Shown here: piece after piece, positions 1 to 4,157 of the stretch | Position numbering within the stretch: position 1 is the first letter of the stretch | Layout of the letters: the number at the start of each line of letters is the position of its first letter | Origin: a virus | Taxonomy: Duplodnaviria; Caudoviricetes | Virus record (IMG/VR): IMGVR_UViG_3300021225_000417 | Location: 1-61,549 of that record | Length of the DNA stretch: 61,549 nucleotides | Reading direction: 5' to 3' (one strand) | The notes under the pieces: model-generated | What the model was told of the DNA's origin: nothing | Seen by the model: only the letters and a program-made list of their open reading frames with translations | The model's database searches: none | Position numbers and translations under genes: made by a program

Positions 1-20
1 GGTTCCGCCAAGGTTCCGCC
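1..20. repeat. Terminal direct repeat (left copy); probable circular assembly overlap
   Basis: ggttccgccaaggttccgcc at 1-20 is identical to 61530-61549. Confidence 0.9.
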
Positions 21-245
21 AGCGAAGGAGAGGCGGAACTACAAGTGATTGAAATAAAAAGCAAAGCGGAACTGCGGAACCACATTTGGCGGAACTGGCG
101 GAACCTAGTTCCGTTTTCCCAACAAAAACAACGTTGCGGAACTGCGGAACTTCCGGGGGGTTATACATTAAGTATAACACCCTGCGCTCGCGGCGCTCGC
201 GCTCCGCCGGAGGCTCCGCGCTCACGGCCGCTGCGCGCGCCCGTT
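1..245. repeat. Putative replication origin: GCGGAAC iteron-like repeats plus AT-rich palindrome
   Basis: GCGGAAC at ~33, 66, 74, 89, 98, 136, 144; inverted copies at 2 and 13; palindrome gttatac-attaa-gtataac at 160-178; directly downstream of the primase-helicase gene on the circle. Confidence 0.55.
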
Positions 246-316
246 GGCGTGCGGGGGATTGACTGGACAGGGGTTGCCTTGGTTTATTAGTGCAATTGAA
301 GTCGGAGAGGATTGAT

Positions 317-688
317 ATGGGCATGCGGGCGAAGGGGACGCGGCACGGCGTCGCGGATGTCAGGACGATTGGCGACAGGGAATACGTCGTTCGCGCGGAC
401 GAGCGGCCTTTGGCGAAGAAGGGCAGATGGGAACTTTCGGAGTTCACGAATTGGCGAGGCGCCGCGTGGGTGTCGCTGAAGTTGTTCGACACGCACGGTC
501 AGGCGAGGAAGCGGGTCTATCAGATTGGTTACAGCCTTGAGTGCCGGAGGCTTGCGATGAATGTCAATTCGTGCGCCTTGCGTGATCGTTACCCGGAAAT
601 TTTTGATTGGGTCCTGGAGACGATGCGGGAGCTGCACCAGTCCGGCGAGCTGGACACTCCCGCCGGCCGCGAGGATGTTGAGCGATGA
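317..688 (+). CDS. Hypothetical protein (paralog of 2234..2548)
   Basis: ATG at 317 after GGAGAGG; stop overlaps the next start (ATGA). Confidence 0.65.
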   Translation: MGMRAKGTRHGVADVRTIGDREYVVRADERPLAKKGRWELSEFTNWRGAAWVSLKLFDTHGQARKRVYQIGYSLECRRLAMNVNSCALRDRYPEIFDWVLETMRELHQSGELDTPAGREDVER

Positions 689-2232
689 CCCGCGGCGTTT
701 ACTACAACGAGTTCGACCCCCGCGCTGCGGCGTGGCTGCGCGCTTTGATCGAGCGGCGCCTGATCCCGGCGGGTGAAGTGGACACGCGATCGATCGCCGA
801 CGTTCAGCCGGATGATTTGCGCGGGTTCACGCAGCATCATTTTTTTGCGGGCATCGGCGGCTGGAGCCGGGCGCTTCAGCTCGCGGGGTGGCCGGAGGAT
901 CGGCCGATATGGACGGGCTCGTGCCCGTGTCAGCCATTCAGCGTGGCGGGAAAGAGAAAGGGGACAGCGGATGAAAGACATGTTTGGCCAGATTTCTTCC
1001 GGCTCATTGGCGAGTGCAGAACTGCAGTCGTCATTGGCGAACAGGTTGCGAGCAAGGCTGGGCGCGAGTGGCTCTCCGGAGTGTTCGCTGATCTGGAAGG
1101 AGTGGGCTATGCCGGGGCGGGAGCCGATCTGTGCGCTGCGGGCGTCGGCGCGCCGCACATCCGGCAGCGGCTCTACTGGGTCGGCGTGGCCGACGCCGAA
1201 GGCGTCGGACGGCGAGGGCGGGCGAACGTCGAAGACGAAGGGCGGAGGGAACAGCCATTTGCCGATCCACGCGAGGGAAGCGGCGACGTGGTCGACGCCG
1301 CGAGCCTCGGACGGCGAGAAGGGTGGTCCGAACATGAGCTTCGGGGCCGGGGGCCAGCCACTGCCGGCGCAAGCAGCGGCGACGTGGCCGACGCCGACGA
1401 CGCGCGATGGCAAGGACGGCAGCTTCTGCCCGAACGTCCCGACGAACGCTCTGCTTGGTCGAGCGGCGTGGAGTGGCGACGGGGCGCCGACGGCAAAGAG
1501 AGGCGCGTTGGATGCCAGATTTGTCGCATTTCTGATGGGCTTTCCCCAAGCATGGGTGAGAGCAGGAATGACTGTCGAGAAGAGGCGAAGGGGGAAATAA
1601 ATGGGTGGAAAGATCAAACAAGCTCCCGACAAGATTTGCCAGACCTGCGGAGTGTCGTTCAATCGGACGAGATTTACCAGCGGCGTTTTGGAGGACCTGA
1701 CTCGGTATATGGCACGGAAATTCTGCAGCATCAGTTGCGCGGGAACCCTTCCAAATGTGACGAAGCAGGCGCTTCATCAGCGGGCAAGGGAATTCCGCGG
1801 GGAGGAATGCGAGGCGTGTCACGCGACGGAGAGGCTGCACGTTCATCACGTCGACCACAACCCGAGCAACAACGATCCGTCGAACCTGAAGACGTTGTGC
1901 GCTTCTTGTCATTTGAAACTTCACTGGGCGACTGGAAAGAAGGCGTCGAAGAAGCAGTCGGCCTGCAAAATCTGTGGAGAGCCTGCGAGCAAGTTGGGCA
2001 TGTGCCAGAAACATTATCAGCGTTTCCGAAAATATGGAGATCCATGCCTTACGAAACGCGGCAATGGATTGGGCGTATACTTTGTGAGGGAGGACTTGTC
2101 TGGCAATCTATCCCGCTGCTCACAACTAATCAGCCCAATCGAATAATGCTTTTGCGGGGCTTCGGTAACGCCGTCGTCCCGCCGCTCGCGGCCGAAGTAA
2201 TCAAGGCGCTCATGGACATTCTGGATCATTGA
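685..2232 (+). CDS. C5 DNA cytosine methyltransferase, alpha polypeptide (M.EcoHK31I-type)
   Basis: Motif I FFAGIGGW, IV GSCPCQPFS, VI GEQV, VIII PHIRQRLYW, X LRGFGNAVVP; motif IX absent from this frame. Confidence 0.9.
   Translation: MTRGVYYNEFDPRAAAWLRALIERRLIPAGEVDTRSIADVQPDDLRGFTQHHFFAGIGGWSRALQLAGWPEDRPIWTGSCPCQPFSVAGKRKGTADERHVWPDFFRLIGECRTAVVIGEQVASKAGREWLSGVFADLEGVGYAGAGADLCAAGVGAPHIRQRLYWVGVADAEGVGRRGRANVEDEGRREQPFADPREGSGDVVDAASLGRREGWSEHELRGRGPATAGASSGDVADADDARWQGRQLLPERPDERSAWSSGVEWRRGADGKERRVGCQICRISDGLSPSMGESRNDCREEAKGEINGWKDQTSSRQDLPDLRSVVQSDEIYQRRFGGPDSVYGTEILQHQLRGNPSKCDEAGASSAGKGIPRGGMRGVSRDGEAARSSRRPQPEQQRSVEPEDVVRFLSFETSLGDWKEGVEEAVGLQNLWRACEQVGHVPETLSAFPKIWRSMPYETRQWIGRILCEGGLVWQSIPLLTTNQPNRIMLLRGFGNAVVPPLAAEVIKALMDILDH
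971..1600 (+). CDS. C5 methyltransferase beta polypeptide (TRD + motif IX), nested in an alternative frame
   Basis: ATG 971 after AAGGGG; WPTP/WSTP/WPTP repeats; LDARFVAFLMGFPQAW resembles motif IX. Confidence 0.8.
   Translation: MKDMFGQISSGSLASAELQSSLANRLRARLGASGSPECSLIWKEWAMPGREPICALRASARRTSGSGSTGSAWPTPKASDGEGGRTSKTKGGGNSHLPIHAREAATWSTPRASDGEKGGPNMSFGAGGQPLPAQAAATWPTPTTRDGKDGSFCPNVPTNALLGRAAWSGDGAPTAKRGALDARFVAFLMGFPQAWVRAGMTVEKRRRGK
1601..2146 (+). CDS. HNH endonuclease nested within the methyltransferase alpha gene
   Basis: CEAC..LHVHHVDHNPSNNDPSNLKTLCASCH HNH motif; flanking Cys-rich Zn modules; GAAGGGGG upstream; starts immediately after the beta stop. Confidence 0.85.
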   Translation: MGGKIKQAPDKICQTCGVSFNRTRFTSGVLEDLTRYMARKFCSISCAGTLPNVTKQALHQRAREFRGEECEACHATERLHVHHVDHNPSNNDPSNLKTLCASCHLKLHWATGKKASKKQSACKICGEPASKLGMCQKHYQRFRKYGDPCLTKRGNGLGVYFVREDLSGNLSRCSQLISPIE

Positions 2233-2233
2233 C

Positions 2234-2548
2234 ATGCCAAATCGTGAAATTGCGCGCATGGGCGGCGTTGGAGTTTACCGAACTCCGCAGCCGCCGGCTG
2301 GCGCCAGAAAGTGGGTGAACTTTTGGGTTGTTGGATATCGAACTTATCCGGATGATTTTGGCGTTGAGGGGAGGCAGAAAATAAAATTCATGATTGGATG
2401 GAGCCTGACGGACTGGAAGCATTCGAAGACCGACGGATGGAAATGGATATTGCAAAAAGACCCGGTCTTCGCAAAATGGCTGCTTGATAATATCGAAATG
2501 GAGATGAGACAAAATGGCCCTGCACGAGCAATCAGTCGGGAAGACTGA
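2234..2548 (+). CDS. Hypothetical protein (paralog of 317..688)
   Basis: Tightly packed operon ORF sharing the WV..K..IG(W/Y)SL..P..F..W.L pattern. Confidence 0.6.
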   Translation: MPNREIARMGGVGVYRTPQPPAGARKWVNFWVVGYRTYPDDFGVEGRQKIKFMIGWSLTDWKHSKTDGWKWILQKDPVFAKWLLDNIEMEMRQNGPARAISRED

Positions 2549-3005
2549 CGAGTGGTATACGCCGAAATATATTTTCGACGCATTGGATTGTGAGTTCGAC
2601 ATGGACGTCGCGTCGCCTGAAGACAGAACGCATTGTTGCGTGCCGGCGAAGAAATTCATTGTGCGAGACAGCCTTATTGTCAGATGGAGCGGTTTTGTCT
2701 GGATGAACCCGCCATTTGGCGCACGAAACATGTTGCACTTTTGGCTGGATAAATTTTTTCACCATCACAACGGGATTGCTCTTGTTCCCGACAGAACGTC
2801 TGCGCCGTGGTGGCAGAGGCATGCGCCAAAGTCTGATGCCGTTCTTTTTGTTGCAAAGAAAATAAAATTCATTGGGGCCGATGGCGTCCCCGGAAAGTCT
2901 CCCGCGCAAGGGACTTGTCTCCTCGCGTCTGGAGAGCGGGCCACTGAAGCGCTTCGGCGAGCCGAGGCAAAAAGCCTCGGAGTTTTATTCAAAAATTACT
3001 ATTGA
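2514..3005 (+). CDS. Phage DNA N6-adenine methyltransferase (Dam-like phage family)
   Basis: DEWYTP, FDMDVAS and catalytic WMNPPF motifs. Confidence 0.85.
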   Translation: MALHEQSVGKTDEWYTPKYIFDALDCEFDMDVASPEDRTHCCVPAKKFIVRDSLIVRWSGFVWMNPPFGARNMLHFWLDKFFHHHNGIALVPDRTSAPWWQRHAPKSDAVLFVAKKIKFIGADGVPGKSPAQGTCLLASGERATEALRRAEAKSLGVLFKNYY

Positions 3006-3022
3006 AATGGAGATGATAAAAA

Positions 3023-3715
3023 ATGGCTCGCAGACCAACAGCGAAACTGCCGAAGGCTGACAAAGGCGTCGCGGTGACGACGCCAACAATTCCGTGGATG
3101 CAGACGCCCGGCATGTATCTCTCCGGGAGGTCATTTCTTGATGAGGCCGACGCGATAGAGGTCGAGATGGAGCTGAAGTGGGGCCGCGATCGGTTGCGGC
3201 TCCTCGTGTCGCAGGAGTTGCGTGAGAAGTTTGATCGGCAGCGATATCTCACCGCGCAGGCTCGGTGGTCGGGCGATCTCGAAGACGTCCGGCGCGAGGC
3301 GAAGCGCATGGCGACGGCGTGGCGCGCGCTCGACAAGGCTGCGGCCGCCGCCGGCGCCAATGAGCTGGACCCTGAGATCTGGGAGGTGACGCTGCATGAC
3401 GGCACGGTCGCCACGATCGTGAAGGACCCGACGTTCCTGTCGCGCGTCGTCGCCGACGGGCGCAAAATCAACGCCTACACGCTCGACGAGATCGCGAATA
3501 TGATTTCGGCGTTCCCCGAAATATGCAAGGCGAAGGCGGAATTCCCCGGGGCGGCGGTGACGCGCACAAAGACGCGCGTCGACGACCCTCTGCAAACCCC
3601 GCTCGGAGACAGCCCGGAAGGCATTCACGAGGCGACGCCGCCAATCGACGGCGTCGAGGGCTTTCGGGGAGAGGTCAGCCCCAAATCAATGCTCAATGAC
3701 GACATAGGATTTTGA
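3023..3715 (+). CDS. Hypothetical phage protein
   Basis: 230 aa ORF, GGAG RBS, host-like GC3 codon usage. Confidence 0.75.
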   Translation: MARRPTAKLPKADKGVAVTTPTIPWMQTPGMYLSGRSFLDEADAIEVEMELKWGRDRLRLLVSQELREKFDRQRYLTAQARWSGDLEDVRREAKRMATAWRALDKAAAAAGANELDPEIWEVTLHDGTVATIVKDPTFLSRVVADGRKINAYTLDEIANMISAFPEICKAKAEFPGAAVTRTKTRVDDPLQTPLGDSPEGIHEATPPIDGVEGFRGEVSPKSMLNDDIGF

Positions 3716-3716
3716 T

Positions 3717-4157
3717 ATGAACGGACGCACATTTTTCAGCAAGAGACGACAGCGCTGGCACGCCGAGATGCGCAGCCAAGGGAAGCGCATTCACCTCGGG
3801 TCGTATCAGTCGCGCCCCGAGGCGGAGGCCGCTCTGGCGGTCTCAATGCGGGACGCGGAGAGCGCGCGGGCCATGCTCCGCACCGGCGGGGAGAGCCTAT
3901 CGGAAGACGAGCTGCTGCGCGCGGAGCCGATCAGGCTGTCCCTCCACGGCGGCGGCGAGCTTGTGATTGATCGCGTCTCGAAAATCATCCCGGCGCACGC
4001 GCGCCTGTGCGCCAACACGCCGGTCGAGGCCACGATCCCGGATTACGGGGAGCGGCGCAGCGCCTTCGCCGGCAAAAGGATGATCGTCATGTCGCTGCCG
4101 CGCGTTCGGTTTTTGGAGAAGCCAGACCCCTTGGCTGCGGAAGCCCCCGCAGGCTGA
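3717..4157 (+). CDS. Protein with an N-terminal AP2-like DNA-binding domain
   Basis: FSKRRQRWHAEMRSQGKRIHLGSYQSRPEAEAA fits the AP2 pattern W.A......LG.Y....EA. Confidence 0.6.
   Translation: MNGRTFFSKRRQRWHAEMRSQGKRIHLGSYQSRPEAEAALAVSMRDAESARAMLRTGGESLSEDELLRAEPIRLSLHGGGELVIDRVSKIIPAHARLCANTPVEATIPDYGERRSAFAGKRMIVMSLPRVRFLEKPDPLAAEAPAG

What the first reader, a model, noticed from the sequence alone, without database searches (positions are those of the whole stretch)
1601..2146. A complete HNH endonuclease gene nested inside the open methyltransferase reading frame
Seen: the 181-aa HNH ORF lies wholly within 685..2232 in another frame, directly after the beta-subunit stop (TAA|ATG). The alpha frame stays open through all 182 overlapping codons and reaches motif X. 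The HNH stop overlaps an alpha-frame ATG (TAATG, 2146) that could separately start the 28-aa motif X peptide MLLRGFGNAVVP.... So roughly three quarters of the alpha gene is dual-coding with two different nested genes. Inference: a homing endonuclease has inserted without intron or intein splicing by using the low-constraint linker of the alpha chain, with selection keeping stops out of the second frame. Alternatively the enzyme assembles from three pieces, or the HNH acts as a cognate restriction nuclease.
Basis: partly seen in the sequence, partly recalled or inferred. Interest (0 to 1): 0.75.

Follow-up and report, generated by a model that had tools for sequence, protein, structure and literature searches.

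The report
HNH gene nested in two-frame methylase
A selfish HNH nuclease gene sits out of frame inside a phage DNA cytosine-methylase gene that already encodes two proteins in two frames, and the main methylase frame is kept free of stop codons so it can be read straight through; the trick was published in 2025 for other phage methylases, so this is a well-supported variant, not a new kind.

Summary
Alpha (685-2232), beta (773-1600) and HNH (1601-2146) are as described, with TAA|ATG at 1600/1601 and TAATG at 2144-2148.

The open alpha frame over the HNH gene is not chance. None of 20000 synonymous shuffles is stop-free; 8.4 stops are expected.

An HNH-less close relative (L015) places the insertion at window 1557-2152, a net gain of 591 nt or 197 codons. 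The insertion sits between beta's motif IX and alpha's motif X. The overlapping target segment is partly duplicated.

Of 58 distinct members of this HNH family, 54 are nested with the host frame open. Three free-standing members carry 2, 6 and 9 stops in that frame (5.9, 7.0 and 9.2 expected).

A natural variant about 94% identical shows mostly synonymous changes in the HNH and beta frames. In the alpha frame its changes are mostly non-synonymous, with no new stop.

Best reading: a mobile HNH cassette that is translated through as a loop of the alpha chain.

The principle is published (ShiLan domain, Arsenault et al. 2025; M.EcoHK31I alpha/beta, 1995). This scan has already reported the same combination on other DNA. 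Added here: the HNH lies in the beta frame, 0-21 nt after beta's stop, usually behind a Shine-Dalgarno-like site.

No expression or activity data exist.

The parts
685..2232 (+). Alpha ORF of the C5 DNA methyltransferase (515 aa). It has the catalytic core with motifs I-VIII (aa 1-170), a stop-free linker, and motif X at the very end.
   Evidence: Pfam DNA_methylase on aa 75-170. phrog_363 over aa 1-512 against profile positions 7-315 of 327. In the AF2 model, aa 1-170 and 486-514 are confident. Foldseek's best matches are M.HhaI and M.HaeIII.
773..1600 (+). Beta ORF, nested in alpha in the +1 frame. It carries W-P/S-T-P repeats and the motif IX-like FVAFLMGFPQAW (1520-1555).
   Evidence: phrog_1008 'DNA methyltransferase', E 2e-33. 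The alpha frame is open over the beta relatives in 58 of 63 evaluable loci.
1557..2152 (+). The insertion, measured against the HNH-less relative L015. 596 nt replace 5 nt, a net gain of 591 nt or 197 codons.
   Evidence: In one search, L015 2701-2846 aligns to window 1411-1556 and L015 2852-2959 aligns to window 2153-2260. The protein alignment A2 shows the same site in 18 other alpha proteins.
1588..1595 (+). Purine-rich Shine-Dalgarno-like site (AAGGGGGA), 5 nt before the HNH start and inside beta's last codons.
   Evidence: Read. A crude SD-like pattern is present in 34 of 54 nested family members.
1601..2146 (+). HNH endonuclease ORF (181 aa), in the beta frame directly after beta's stop. 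The HNH core is aa 82-108 (nt 1844-1924), flanked by Cys pairs.
   Evidence: Pfam HNH and HNH_3. 12 PHROG HNH families, best 3.6e-13. Invariant C13 C16 C42 C46 C70 C73 H82 H83 D85 N91 N95 C100 C103 H104 H108 across 35 sequences.
2131..2152 (+). Right-hand partial copy of the target segment (CCCAATCG...). It restores alpha's P-N-R...L lead-in to motif X and also holds the last HNH codons.
   Evidence: L015 reads DGVPNRVGRLRGFGN. The window reads DGLSPSMGE on the left of the insertion and QPNRIMLLRGFGN on the right.
2146..2148 (+). Alpha-frame ATG that overlaps the HNH stop (TAATG). It is a possible but unsupported restart for a 28-aa motif X peptide.
   Evidence: No SD-like site lies upstream. 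The equivalent residue is not Met in relatives.
2158..2181 (+). Motif X (GFGNAVVP) of alpha.
   Evidence: G494, N495 and A496 are invariant in 47 alpha proteins. Helix 486-514 has pLDDT 73-90.

Best explanation
The locus is a phage C5 DNA methyltransferase of the two-frame (alpha/beta) type.

- Alpha carries the catalytic core (motifs I-VIII) and, after a long unconstrained linker, motif X.
- Beta is read in the +1 frame inside alpha. It carries the repeat-rich recognition part and motif IX.

A mobile HNH endonuclease cassette has inserted just where beta's motif IX coding and alpha's lead-in to motif X overlap, and it partly duplicates that segment.

- In the beta frame the cassette ends beta and immediately starts the HNH gene, which is translated from its own Shine-Dalgarno-like site or by coupling to beta's termination.
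- In the alpha frame the cassette has no stop codon. Ribosomes therefore read through it and add about 197 residues of loop before motif X, which still docks onto the catalytic core.

Selection on the methylase keeps the -1 frame of the HNH gene free of stops.

Shown here: the anatomy, the insertion boundaries, the non-random open frame, its recurrence across the family, and the substitution pattern.

Inferred, not shown: translation of all three products, methylase activity with the loop in place, and homing by the HNH.
For: 1. Shuffle test. None of 20000 synonymous shuffles leaves the alpha frame open (8.4 stops expected). The same holds for 7 further nested HNH ORFs in 6 loci, including a Staphylococcus phage ORF at 35% G+C (11.1 expected, 0 observed). 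The control frame behaves as expected.

2. Boundaries. The HNH-less relative L015 has closely similar flanks (aligned) and gives a net insertion of exactly 197 codons. The alignment of 47 alpha proteins places the insertion between ...LLVDG and VPNRVGRLRGxGNA in the window and in 18 others.

3. Family survey. Of 58 distinct HNH proteins (at least 40% identity over at least 100 aa), 51 have a stop-free -1 frame and 3 more have only the host's own stop. The expected median is 7.05 stops, and the other frame has a median of 7. The host frames carry C5 motifs IV and X.

4. Natural negative controls. The free-standing members L107, L118 and L122 have 6, 2 and 9 stops in that frame, against 7.0, 5.9 and 9.2 expected.

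5. Patchy distribution. Only 1 of 65 beta relatives (L062) carries the HNH.

6. A natural variant. Contigs of two separate metagenome studies bridge both junctions at about 94% identity. Of the 35 listed differences, changed HNH-frame codons are 14 synonymous and 10 non-synonymous. Changed alpha-frame codons are 6 synonymous and 20 non-synonymous, with no new stop. In beta's tail the figures are 7 and 1, against 1 and 7 for alpha over the same stretch.

7. Position of the HNH. It lies in the frame of, and 0-21 nt after, an upstream ORF of at least 150 codons in 32 of 54 nested loci.

8. No splicing signature. Rfam finds no intron and Pfam finds no intein or Hint domain.

9. Structure. AF2 models the core (aa 1-170) and the motif X helix (aa 486-514) with confidence. 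The linker at 176-259 and the stretch at 354-422 score below pLDDT 50. The fold matches M.HhaI.
Against: - There is no expression, protein or activity evidence of any kind, and no RNA holder was listed for this stretch.
- In this 57% G+C genome, 2.6% of 182-codon windows in the -1 frame of other long ORFs are stop-free. On its own, the single-locus observation would therefore be less striking than the shuffle test suggests.
- The alpha-frame ATG at 2146 leaves a three-piece enzyme possible in this particular phage.
- Parts of the insert (aa 290-350 and 423-480) are modelled as helices at pLDDT 53-78. The loop may be more than a passive spacer.
- 4 of 58 family members do not fit the nested pattern (3 free-standing, 1 degraded).
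- The variant analysis used only the 35 differences that one search printed, out of 41 on that contig.
- Homing itself is inferred from distribution alone.
Confidence: 0.78

Rival explanations
1. Three-piece enzyme. Alpha's long form is not the functional one. Motif X is made as a separate 28-aa peptide, started at ATG 2146 by coupling to the HNH stop (TAATG), and it assembles with the alpha core and beta.
For: TAATG at 2144-2148 is real. Split C5 methyltransferases can assemble from fragments (M.EcoHK31I alpha/beta, passages of PMC2836561 read).
Against: - This reading would need no open alpha frame through the HNH. Yet that frame is stop-free here and in 54 of 58 family members.
- In 20 of the 51 members measured, the HNH stop lies beyond the start of motif X.
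- The Met is not conserved in relatives, and no SD-like site precedes 2146.
Confidence: 0.07
2. Domesticated partner. The HNH is not selfish. It is a working companion of the methylase, for example a restriction-like or methylation-sensing nuclease, or a packaging nuclease, kept nested for co-expression.
For: The family is almost always found inside C5 methyltransferase genes. The HNH is placed for translation right after beta. The HNH frame shows an excess of synonymous change.
Against: - Close relatives with closely similar flanks lack it (L015).
- Only 1 of 65 beta relatives has it.
- The same HNH family sits in divergent hosts and at another site in a single-chain methylase of a Staphylococcus phage.
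- A selfish endonuclease is also expected to be under purifying selection while it is active.
Confidence: 0.1
3. Spliced element. The insertion is a group I intron or an intein that is removed at the RNA or protein level.
For: HNH genes are common passengers of phage group I introns and inteins (recalled). Distant relatives of this HNH do lie inside terminase inteins.
Against: - There is no Rfam match in 1-4000 at E up to 1 apart from an unrelated sRNA hit.
- The HNH ORF fills 546 of the 596 inserted bases, which leaves no room for a ribozyme core.
- Pfam finds no intein or Hint domain in alpha.
- An intron would not need an open host frame.
Confidence: 0.03
4. Chance or decay. The alpha frame is open by accident in a G+C-rich genome, or the methylase is already dead.
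For: 2.6% of comparable -1-frame windows in this genome are stop-free.
Against: None of 20000 shuffles is open. The pattern recurs in 54 of 58 family members down to 35% G+C. Motif X and the catalytic residues are intact. Free-standing members carry stops.
Confidence: 0.01

Closest known systems
ShiLan domain and the Pacc40 gp60 insertion: hidden out-of-frame HNH endonucleases in actinophage DNA methylases (Arsenault, Gosselin, Gogarten 2025, PMC11855218; introduction, results and discussion read)
   Same: An HNH with flanking zinc fingers is encoded out of frame inside a phage methylase gene. The host frame has no stops. There is no intron or intein signature. The start of the insertion resembles the sequence that follows the insertion site. 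Distribution is patchy. The insertion is modelled as a loop.
   Different: - The host here is a two-frame alpha/beta C5 methylase, so three genes share the DNA.
- The HNH is in the second frame relative to the host (host +1). The paper describes the third frame.
- It starts with ATG behind a Shine-Dalgarno-like site directly after beta's stop. The paper found no RBS and proposed leaderless GTG initiation.
- No Mycobacterium phage is among the 60 best of 275 phage records found with this HNH, so sequence kinship is not shown.
- The paper does not use the word cytosine, and I could not establish its methylase class.
M.EcoHK31I, a heterodimeric C5 methyltransferase with beta encoded inside alpha in another frame (Lee, Kam, Shaw 1995, as described in PMC2836561; passages read)
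   Same: Beta lies entirely inside alpha in another frame. Alpha has motifs I-VIII and X. Beta has motif IX.
   Different: - According to that paper, alpha also holds the target recognition domain.
- Here alpha's middle is predicted disordered and changes freely at the amino-acid level. The repeat-rich recognition part appears to lie in beta.
- M.EcoHK31I has no nested nuclease.
- Direct sequence comparison with M.EcoHK31I was not done.
Totally overlapping C5 methyltransferase ORFs of Streptococcus thermophilus 5093-group phages, a pneumococcal phage and Tn5252 (PMC5601072; one passage read)
   Same: Two methylase products come from the same DNA in different frames in phages and mobile elements.
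   Different: No nested endonuclease is described there. Kinship to this family was not tested.
[quoted passage not shown]
   Same: A homing endonuclease is encoded in another frame of a translated host sequence. Distant relatives of the window's HNH do the same inside terminase inteins.
   Different: There the read-through peptide is removed with the intein by protein splicing. In the window nothing removes it.
Free-standing homing endonucleases that split a host gene (the phage T4 gene 39/60 cassette, as described in PMC5009743; passages read)
   Same: An endonuclease gene sits inside a coding region with neither intron nor intein.
   Different: In T4 the host gene is cut into two genes. Here the host frame stays continuous.

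Membership tests
Hidden out-of-frame HNH insertion in a phage DNA methylase (ShiLan-domain type) | The insertion lies inside the methylase ORF and is absent from close homologues. | tested here: met
   L015 lacks window 1557-2152. 28 HNH-less alpha proteins stand against 19 with the insertion in alignment A2.
Hidden out-of-frame HNH insertion in a phage DNA methylase (ShiLan-domain type) | The host frame has no stop codon through the insertion. | tested here: met
   None of 20000 shuffles is open.
Hidden out-of-frame HNH insertion in a phage DNA methylase (ShiLan-domain type) | Another frame of the insertion encodes an HNH endonuclease with flanking zinc-finger-like Cys pairs. | tested here: met
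   Pfam HNH, PHROG HNH families, invariant Cys and His columns.
Hidden out-of-frame HNH insertion in a phage DNA methylase (ShiLan-domain type) | No intron or intein signature. | tested here: met
   No Rfam intron match. No intein or Hint Pfam match in alpha.
Hidden out-of-frame HNH insertion in a phage DNA methylase (ShiLan-domain type) | Sequence kinship and frame relation to the ShiLan HNH itself. | tested here: inconclusive
   The frame relation differs: second frame here, third frame in PMC11855218. No Mycobacterium phage is among the 60 rows shown of 275 records. The ShiLan sequence was not fetched.
M.EcoHK31I-type alpha/beta C5 methyltransferase | Beta is encoded inside alpha in another reading frame. 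| tested here: met
   Conserved in 58 of 63 evaluable relatives.
M.EcoHK31I-type alpha/beta C5 methyltransferase | [quoted passage not shown] | tested here: met
   Invariant FxGxG, PCQ, EQV, QxR and GNA columns in alpha. LMGFPQAW in beta. The motif names are recalled from the C5-methyltransferase literature.
M.EcoHK31I-type alpha/beta C5 methyltransferase | The target recognition domain lies in alpha (as PMC2836561 describes M.EcoHK31I). | tested here: not met
   Alpha aa 176-259 scores below pLDDT 50. In beta's tail, changes in the alpha frame are 1 synonymous and 7 non-synonymous. The repeat-rich part is in beta (phrog_1008). This is an inference from models, not an assay.
M.EcoHK31I-type alpha/beta C5 methyltransferase | Both polypeptides are required for methylation. 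| not testable with these tools
   Needs expression of alpha and beta separately and together.
Group I intron carrying a homing endonuclease | A ribozyme core flanks the endonuclease ORF. | tested here: not met
   No Rfam match. The ORF fills 546 of the 596 inserted bases.
Intein | Splicing blocks (Hint fold) in the host frame at both ends of the insertion. | tested here: not met
   The only Pfam match on alpha is DNA_methylase.

The most novel reading that the evidence does not exclude
This HNH lineage may be a specialised 'frame-transparent' homing endonuclease. Its -1 frame is kept stop-free, so it can live inside any translated host sequence: alpha chains of two-frame methylases, single-chain C5 methylases, and (for distant relatives) the endonuclease slot of terminase inteins. 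In two-frame methylases it uses the second frame as its own expression slot. It ends beta and restarts on the same ribosomes, and a partial duplication of the doubly coding target lets motif IX (beta) and the lead-in to motif X (alpha) both survive the insertion. That would answer, for this lineage, the question the 2025 paper left open about how hidden endonucleases are translated.
Probability: 0.35. Interest if true: 0.65.

Novelty: new variant of a known kind. Interest (0 to 1): 0.5.

Why it matters
The locus shows a third way for a homing endonuclease to live inside a gene without destroying it. It uses neither RNA splicing nor protein splicing. The host simply translates through it. Here this is combined with a gene that already encodes two proteins in two frames, so up to 89% of one 1.5-kb gene is dual-coding.

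The family-level numbers (54 of 58 nested with an open host frame, free-standing members with stops) turn a published anecdote into a rule for one HNH lineage.

There is also a practical consequence. Gene callers record only one of the overlapping genes. The Staphylococcus phage record annotates only the methylase, and the Komagataeibacter phage record annotates neither the methylase nor the HNH. Methylases of unusual length may therefore hide nucleases.

Tried and rejected
- **Intron.** The Rfam scan of 1-4000 at E up to 1 gave only a weak, unrelated sRNA hit.
- **Solved relatives of the HNH.** phmmer against PDB sequences found nothing at E up to 1.
- **DNA-level relatives in named phages.** Only the alpha N-terminal 500 nt matched, at 66-71% identity. 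This gave no help for the boundaries. It did lead to Xanthomonas phage PhiXhv-28, where both frames are annotated as methyltransferase.
- **Expression.** No RNA holder was listed for 1200-2500. The one run labelled RNA-Seq was judged probably DNA. This says nothing about expression.
- **HNH-less allele in the reads.** One joint (1420 to 2164, side 29, depth 4.6) and one contig that starts to match at exactly 2153 appeared in X4. They hint at an HNH-less allele but are too weak to count as evidence. X2 and X3 gave identical figures and are probably one data set filed twice.
- **First script for beta ORFs.** My first script printed the wrong frame for beta ('beta_open' lines). I ignored those lines and used only the alpha lines.
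- **Complex prediction of alpha with beta.** Not run. It is a textbook split pair and a pass would not have changed my odds.
- **Literature.** Searches found no paper on an HNH nested in a two-frame C5 methylase. Supplements were closed, so the survey tables and repository of PMC11855218 may list relatives of this element that I could not see.
- **Methylase class of ShiLan.** The 2023 paper holds none of the terms cytosine, adenine, ParB, N-6 or C-5.
Full report
**What is there.** The window is a complete 61.5-kb virus record. At its left end three ORFs share one stretch of the + strand.
- Alpha is 685-2232 (515 aa).
- Beta is 773-1600, in the +1 frame.
- An HNH ORF is 1601-2146, in the same frame as beta. 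Its ATG directly follows beta's TAA.
- The HNH stop overlaps an alpha-frame ATG (TAATG, 2144-2148).

Alpha begins with the C5-methyltransferase catalytic motifs and ends with GFGNAVVP. Pfam recognises only residues 75-170. PHROGs matches the whole length to a 327-position methyltransferase profile, which shows that about 190 residues are extra. Beta matches a separate PHROG, also called DNA methyltransferase. The nested ORF matches twelve HNH endonuclease families. G+C falls from 0.72 in the beta overlap to 0.50-0.58 over the HNH.

**Is the open frame chance?** I permuted synonymous codons of the HNH ORF 20000 times. No permutation left the alpha frame open. The mean was 8.4 stops. The third frame has 6 stops against 5.8 expected. 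A fair baseline is less extreme: 221 of 8642 windows of 182 codons in the -1 frame of the other 28 long ORFs of this record are stop-free. The weight therefore rests on replication.

**Replication.** Relatives of the HNH were collected from four sources: viral contigs, species-representative genomes, named phages and one beta relative (L062). They gave 62 loci with 58 distinct proteins at 40% identity or more over 100 aa or more.
- In 51 of the 58, the -1 frame has no stop over the whole HNH ORF.
- In 3 more, the only stop is the host ORF's own end.
- The expected median is 7.05 stops, and the other frame has a median of 7.
- The open frames run for 276-764 codons and mostly carry the PCQ and GN(A/G/S) motifs of C5 methyltransferases.

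The set spans 35% to 55% G+C. It includes Staphylococcus phage CUB-EPI_14, where the record annotates only a 601-aa methyltransferase. It also includes Komagataeibacter phage phiKX1, where neither the methylase nor the HNH is annotated.

The four exceptions are informative. L107, L118 and L122 are free-standing genes, and L107 lies just downstream of an alpha/beta methylase. They carry 6, 2 and 9 stops in that frame, against 7.0, 5.9 and 9.2 expected. L161 is a degraded remnant. The open frame is therefore a property of nesting, not of the HNH sequence.

**Boundaries.** Beta relatives were found in 65 viral loci. In 58 of the 63 that could be evaluated, the alpha frame is open for 250 codons or more across beta. 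In the closest relatives alpha stops 14-32 nt after beta. Only one of the 65 (L062) has the HNH.

L015 is a close HNH-less relative. Its 2701-2846 aligns with window 1411-1556, and its 2852-2959 aligns with window 2153-2260. So 596 nt replace 5 nt, a net gain of 197 codons.

In L015 the same DNA encodes beta's WLMGFPIAW and alpha's LLVDGVPNRVGRLRGFGN. In the window the left copy keeps beta's FLMGFPQAW, which alpha reads as DGLSPSMGE. A right-hand partial copy (CCCAATCG..., 2131-2152) restores alpha's QPNRIMLLRGFGN.

An alignment of 47 alpha proteins shows the same site in 18 others, drawn from the 120 best of 7991 homologues.

**Selection by frame.** Contigs from two separate metagenome studies cover 1480-2199 and 1495-2182 at about 94% identity and bridge both junctions. 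I classified the 35 differences that were listed, out of 41 on that contig.
- HNH frame: 14 synonymous and 10 non-synonymous codon changes. 17 of the 27 substitutions fall on third positions.
- Alpha frame over the same stretch: 6 synonymous and 20 non-synonymous changes, with no new stop.
- Beta's tail: 7 synonymous and 1 non-synonymous change, against 1 and 7 for alpha there.

Alpha's middle thus behaves as a sequence that only has to stay open.

**Structure.** AF2 on the 47-sequence alignment gives a mean pLDDT of 62.4.
- The catalytic core (aa 1-170) and the C-terminal helix 486-514 are confident.
- Residues 176-259 and 354-422 score below 50.
- Helices of moderate confidence lie at 288-353 and 410-480.

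Foldseek's best matches are M.HhaI and M.HaeIII, over about 200 columns. This fits a loop that leaves motif X free to dock, but it is only a model.

**How the HNH is made.** In 32 of 54 nested loci the HNH lies in the frame of an upstream ORF of 150 codons or more, 0-21 nt after that ORF's stop. A crude Shine-Dalgarno pattern precedes 34 of the 54 starts. In the window, AAGGGGGA lies 5 nt before the ATG. The HNH stop lies a median of 18 nt before host motif X, with a range of -198 to +585.

**What is known.** Four published cases bear on this locus.
- Overlapping methylase ORFs are also noted in streptococcal phages and Tn5252 (PMC5601072).
- The nested, translated-through HNH was published in 2025 as the ShiLan domain of mycobacteriophage methylases, with a second case in Pacc40 (PMC11855218). 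The authors found no RBS and left open how the HNH is translated.
- A genome announcement already uses the term (PMC12613952, listing).

Earlier notes of this scan report the same combination in other genomes, and one of them led me to the paper. My searches found no paper on the combination with a two-frame methylase.

**Verdict.** It is a new variant of a published kind: a three-gene, two-frame locus in which a mobile HNH occupies the beta frame after beta and is read through in the alpha frame. Translation, activity and homing remain untested.

Noticed in passing
L130 2283-3185, L124 2899-3291, L177 2797-3192; also L125, L126, L129, L136/L137, L169: Distant relatives of the window's HNH lie out of frame (host +1) inside inteins of phage terminase large-subunit genes. 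The host frame shows the intein splicing blocks on both sides and has no stop over the HNH ORF (4.4-17.4 expected; 0-6 of 2000 shuffles open). [quoted passage not shown] In Brucella phage records an HNH feature overlaps the terminase feature at the match.
   Followed up: partly
L007 1384-3587: One phage methylase carries two nested HNH genes. An unrelated HNH (1916-2467) lies after motif VIII, with that motif duplicated downstream. It shifts the layout so that the alpha core and beta share one frame. The family HNH (2983-3504) lies before motif X. Both host frames are stop-free (11.0 and 7.3 stops expected).
   Followed up: partly
L062 1864-3579: In this relative the host frame carries both motif IX-like (FMMGLPDGW) and motif X (CGNGVVP) after the nested HNH. 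The division of labour between the two frames therefore differs from the window's.
   Followed up: no
window 1-160: A cluster of short repeats lies at the record's left end. GGTTCCGCCA occurs twice, 11 nt apart. GCGGAACTGCGGAAC occurs twice, 70 nt apart. There are perfect 10-12-nt inverted arms (11-22 with 95-106). This may be a protein-binding array near the genome end.
   Followed up: no
window 2514-3005: A second methyltransferase (Pfam Dam, DNA N-6-adenine methyltransferase, E 3.7e-13) lies 280 nt downstream of the C5 methylase locus, in a stretch of lower G+C (0.46-0.50).
   Followed up: no
L107 1402-3440: Here the family HNH is free-standing, directly after an alpha/beta methylase. It is in the third frame and overlaps only alpha's last codons. 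This may be a stage before or after nesting, like the neighbouring HNH genes of phages Tiff81 and Sashimi described in PMC11855218.
   Followed up: partly
P0049: A 358-aa protein, 99% identical to 68% of alpha, is on record from a 61803-nt contig. A near-identical virus seems to have had alpha called from an internal start, which shows how gene callers handle this locus.
   Followed up: no
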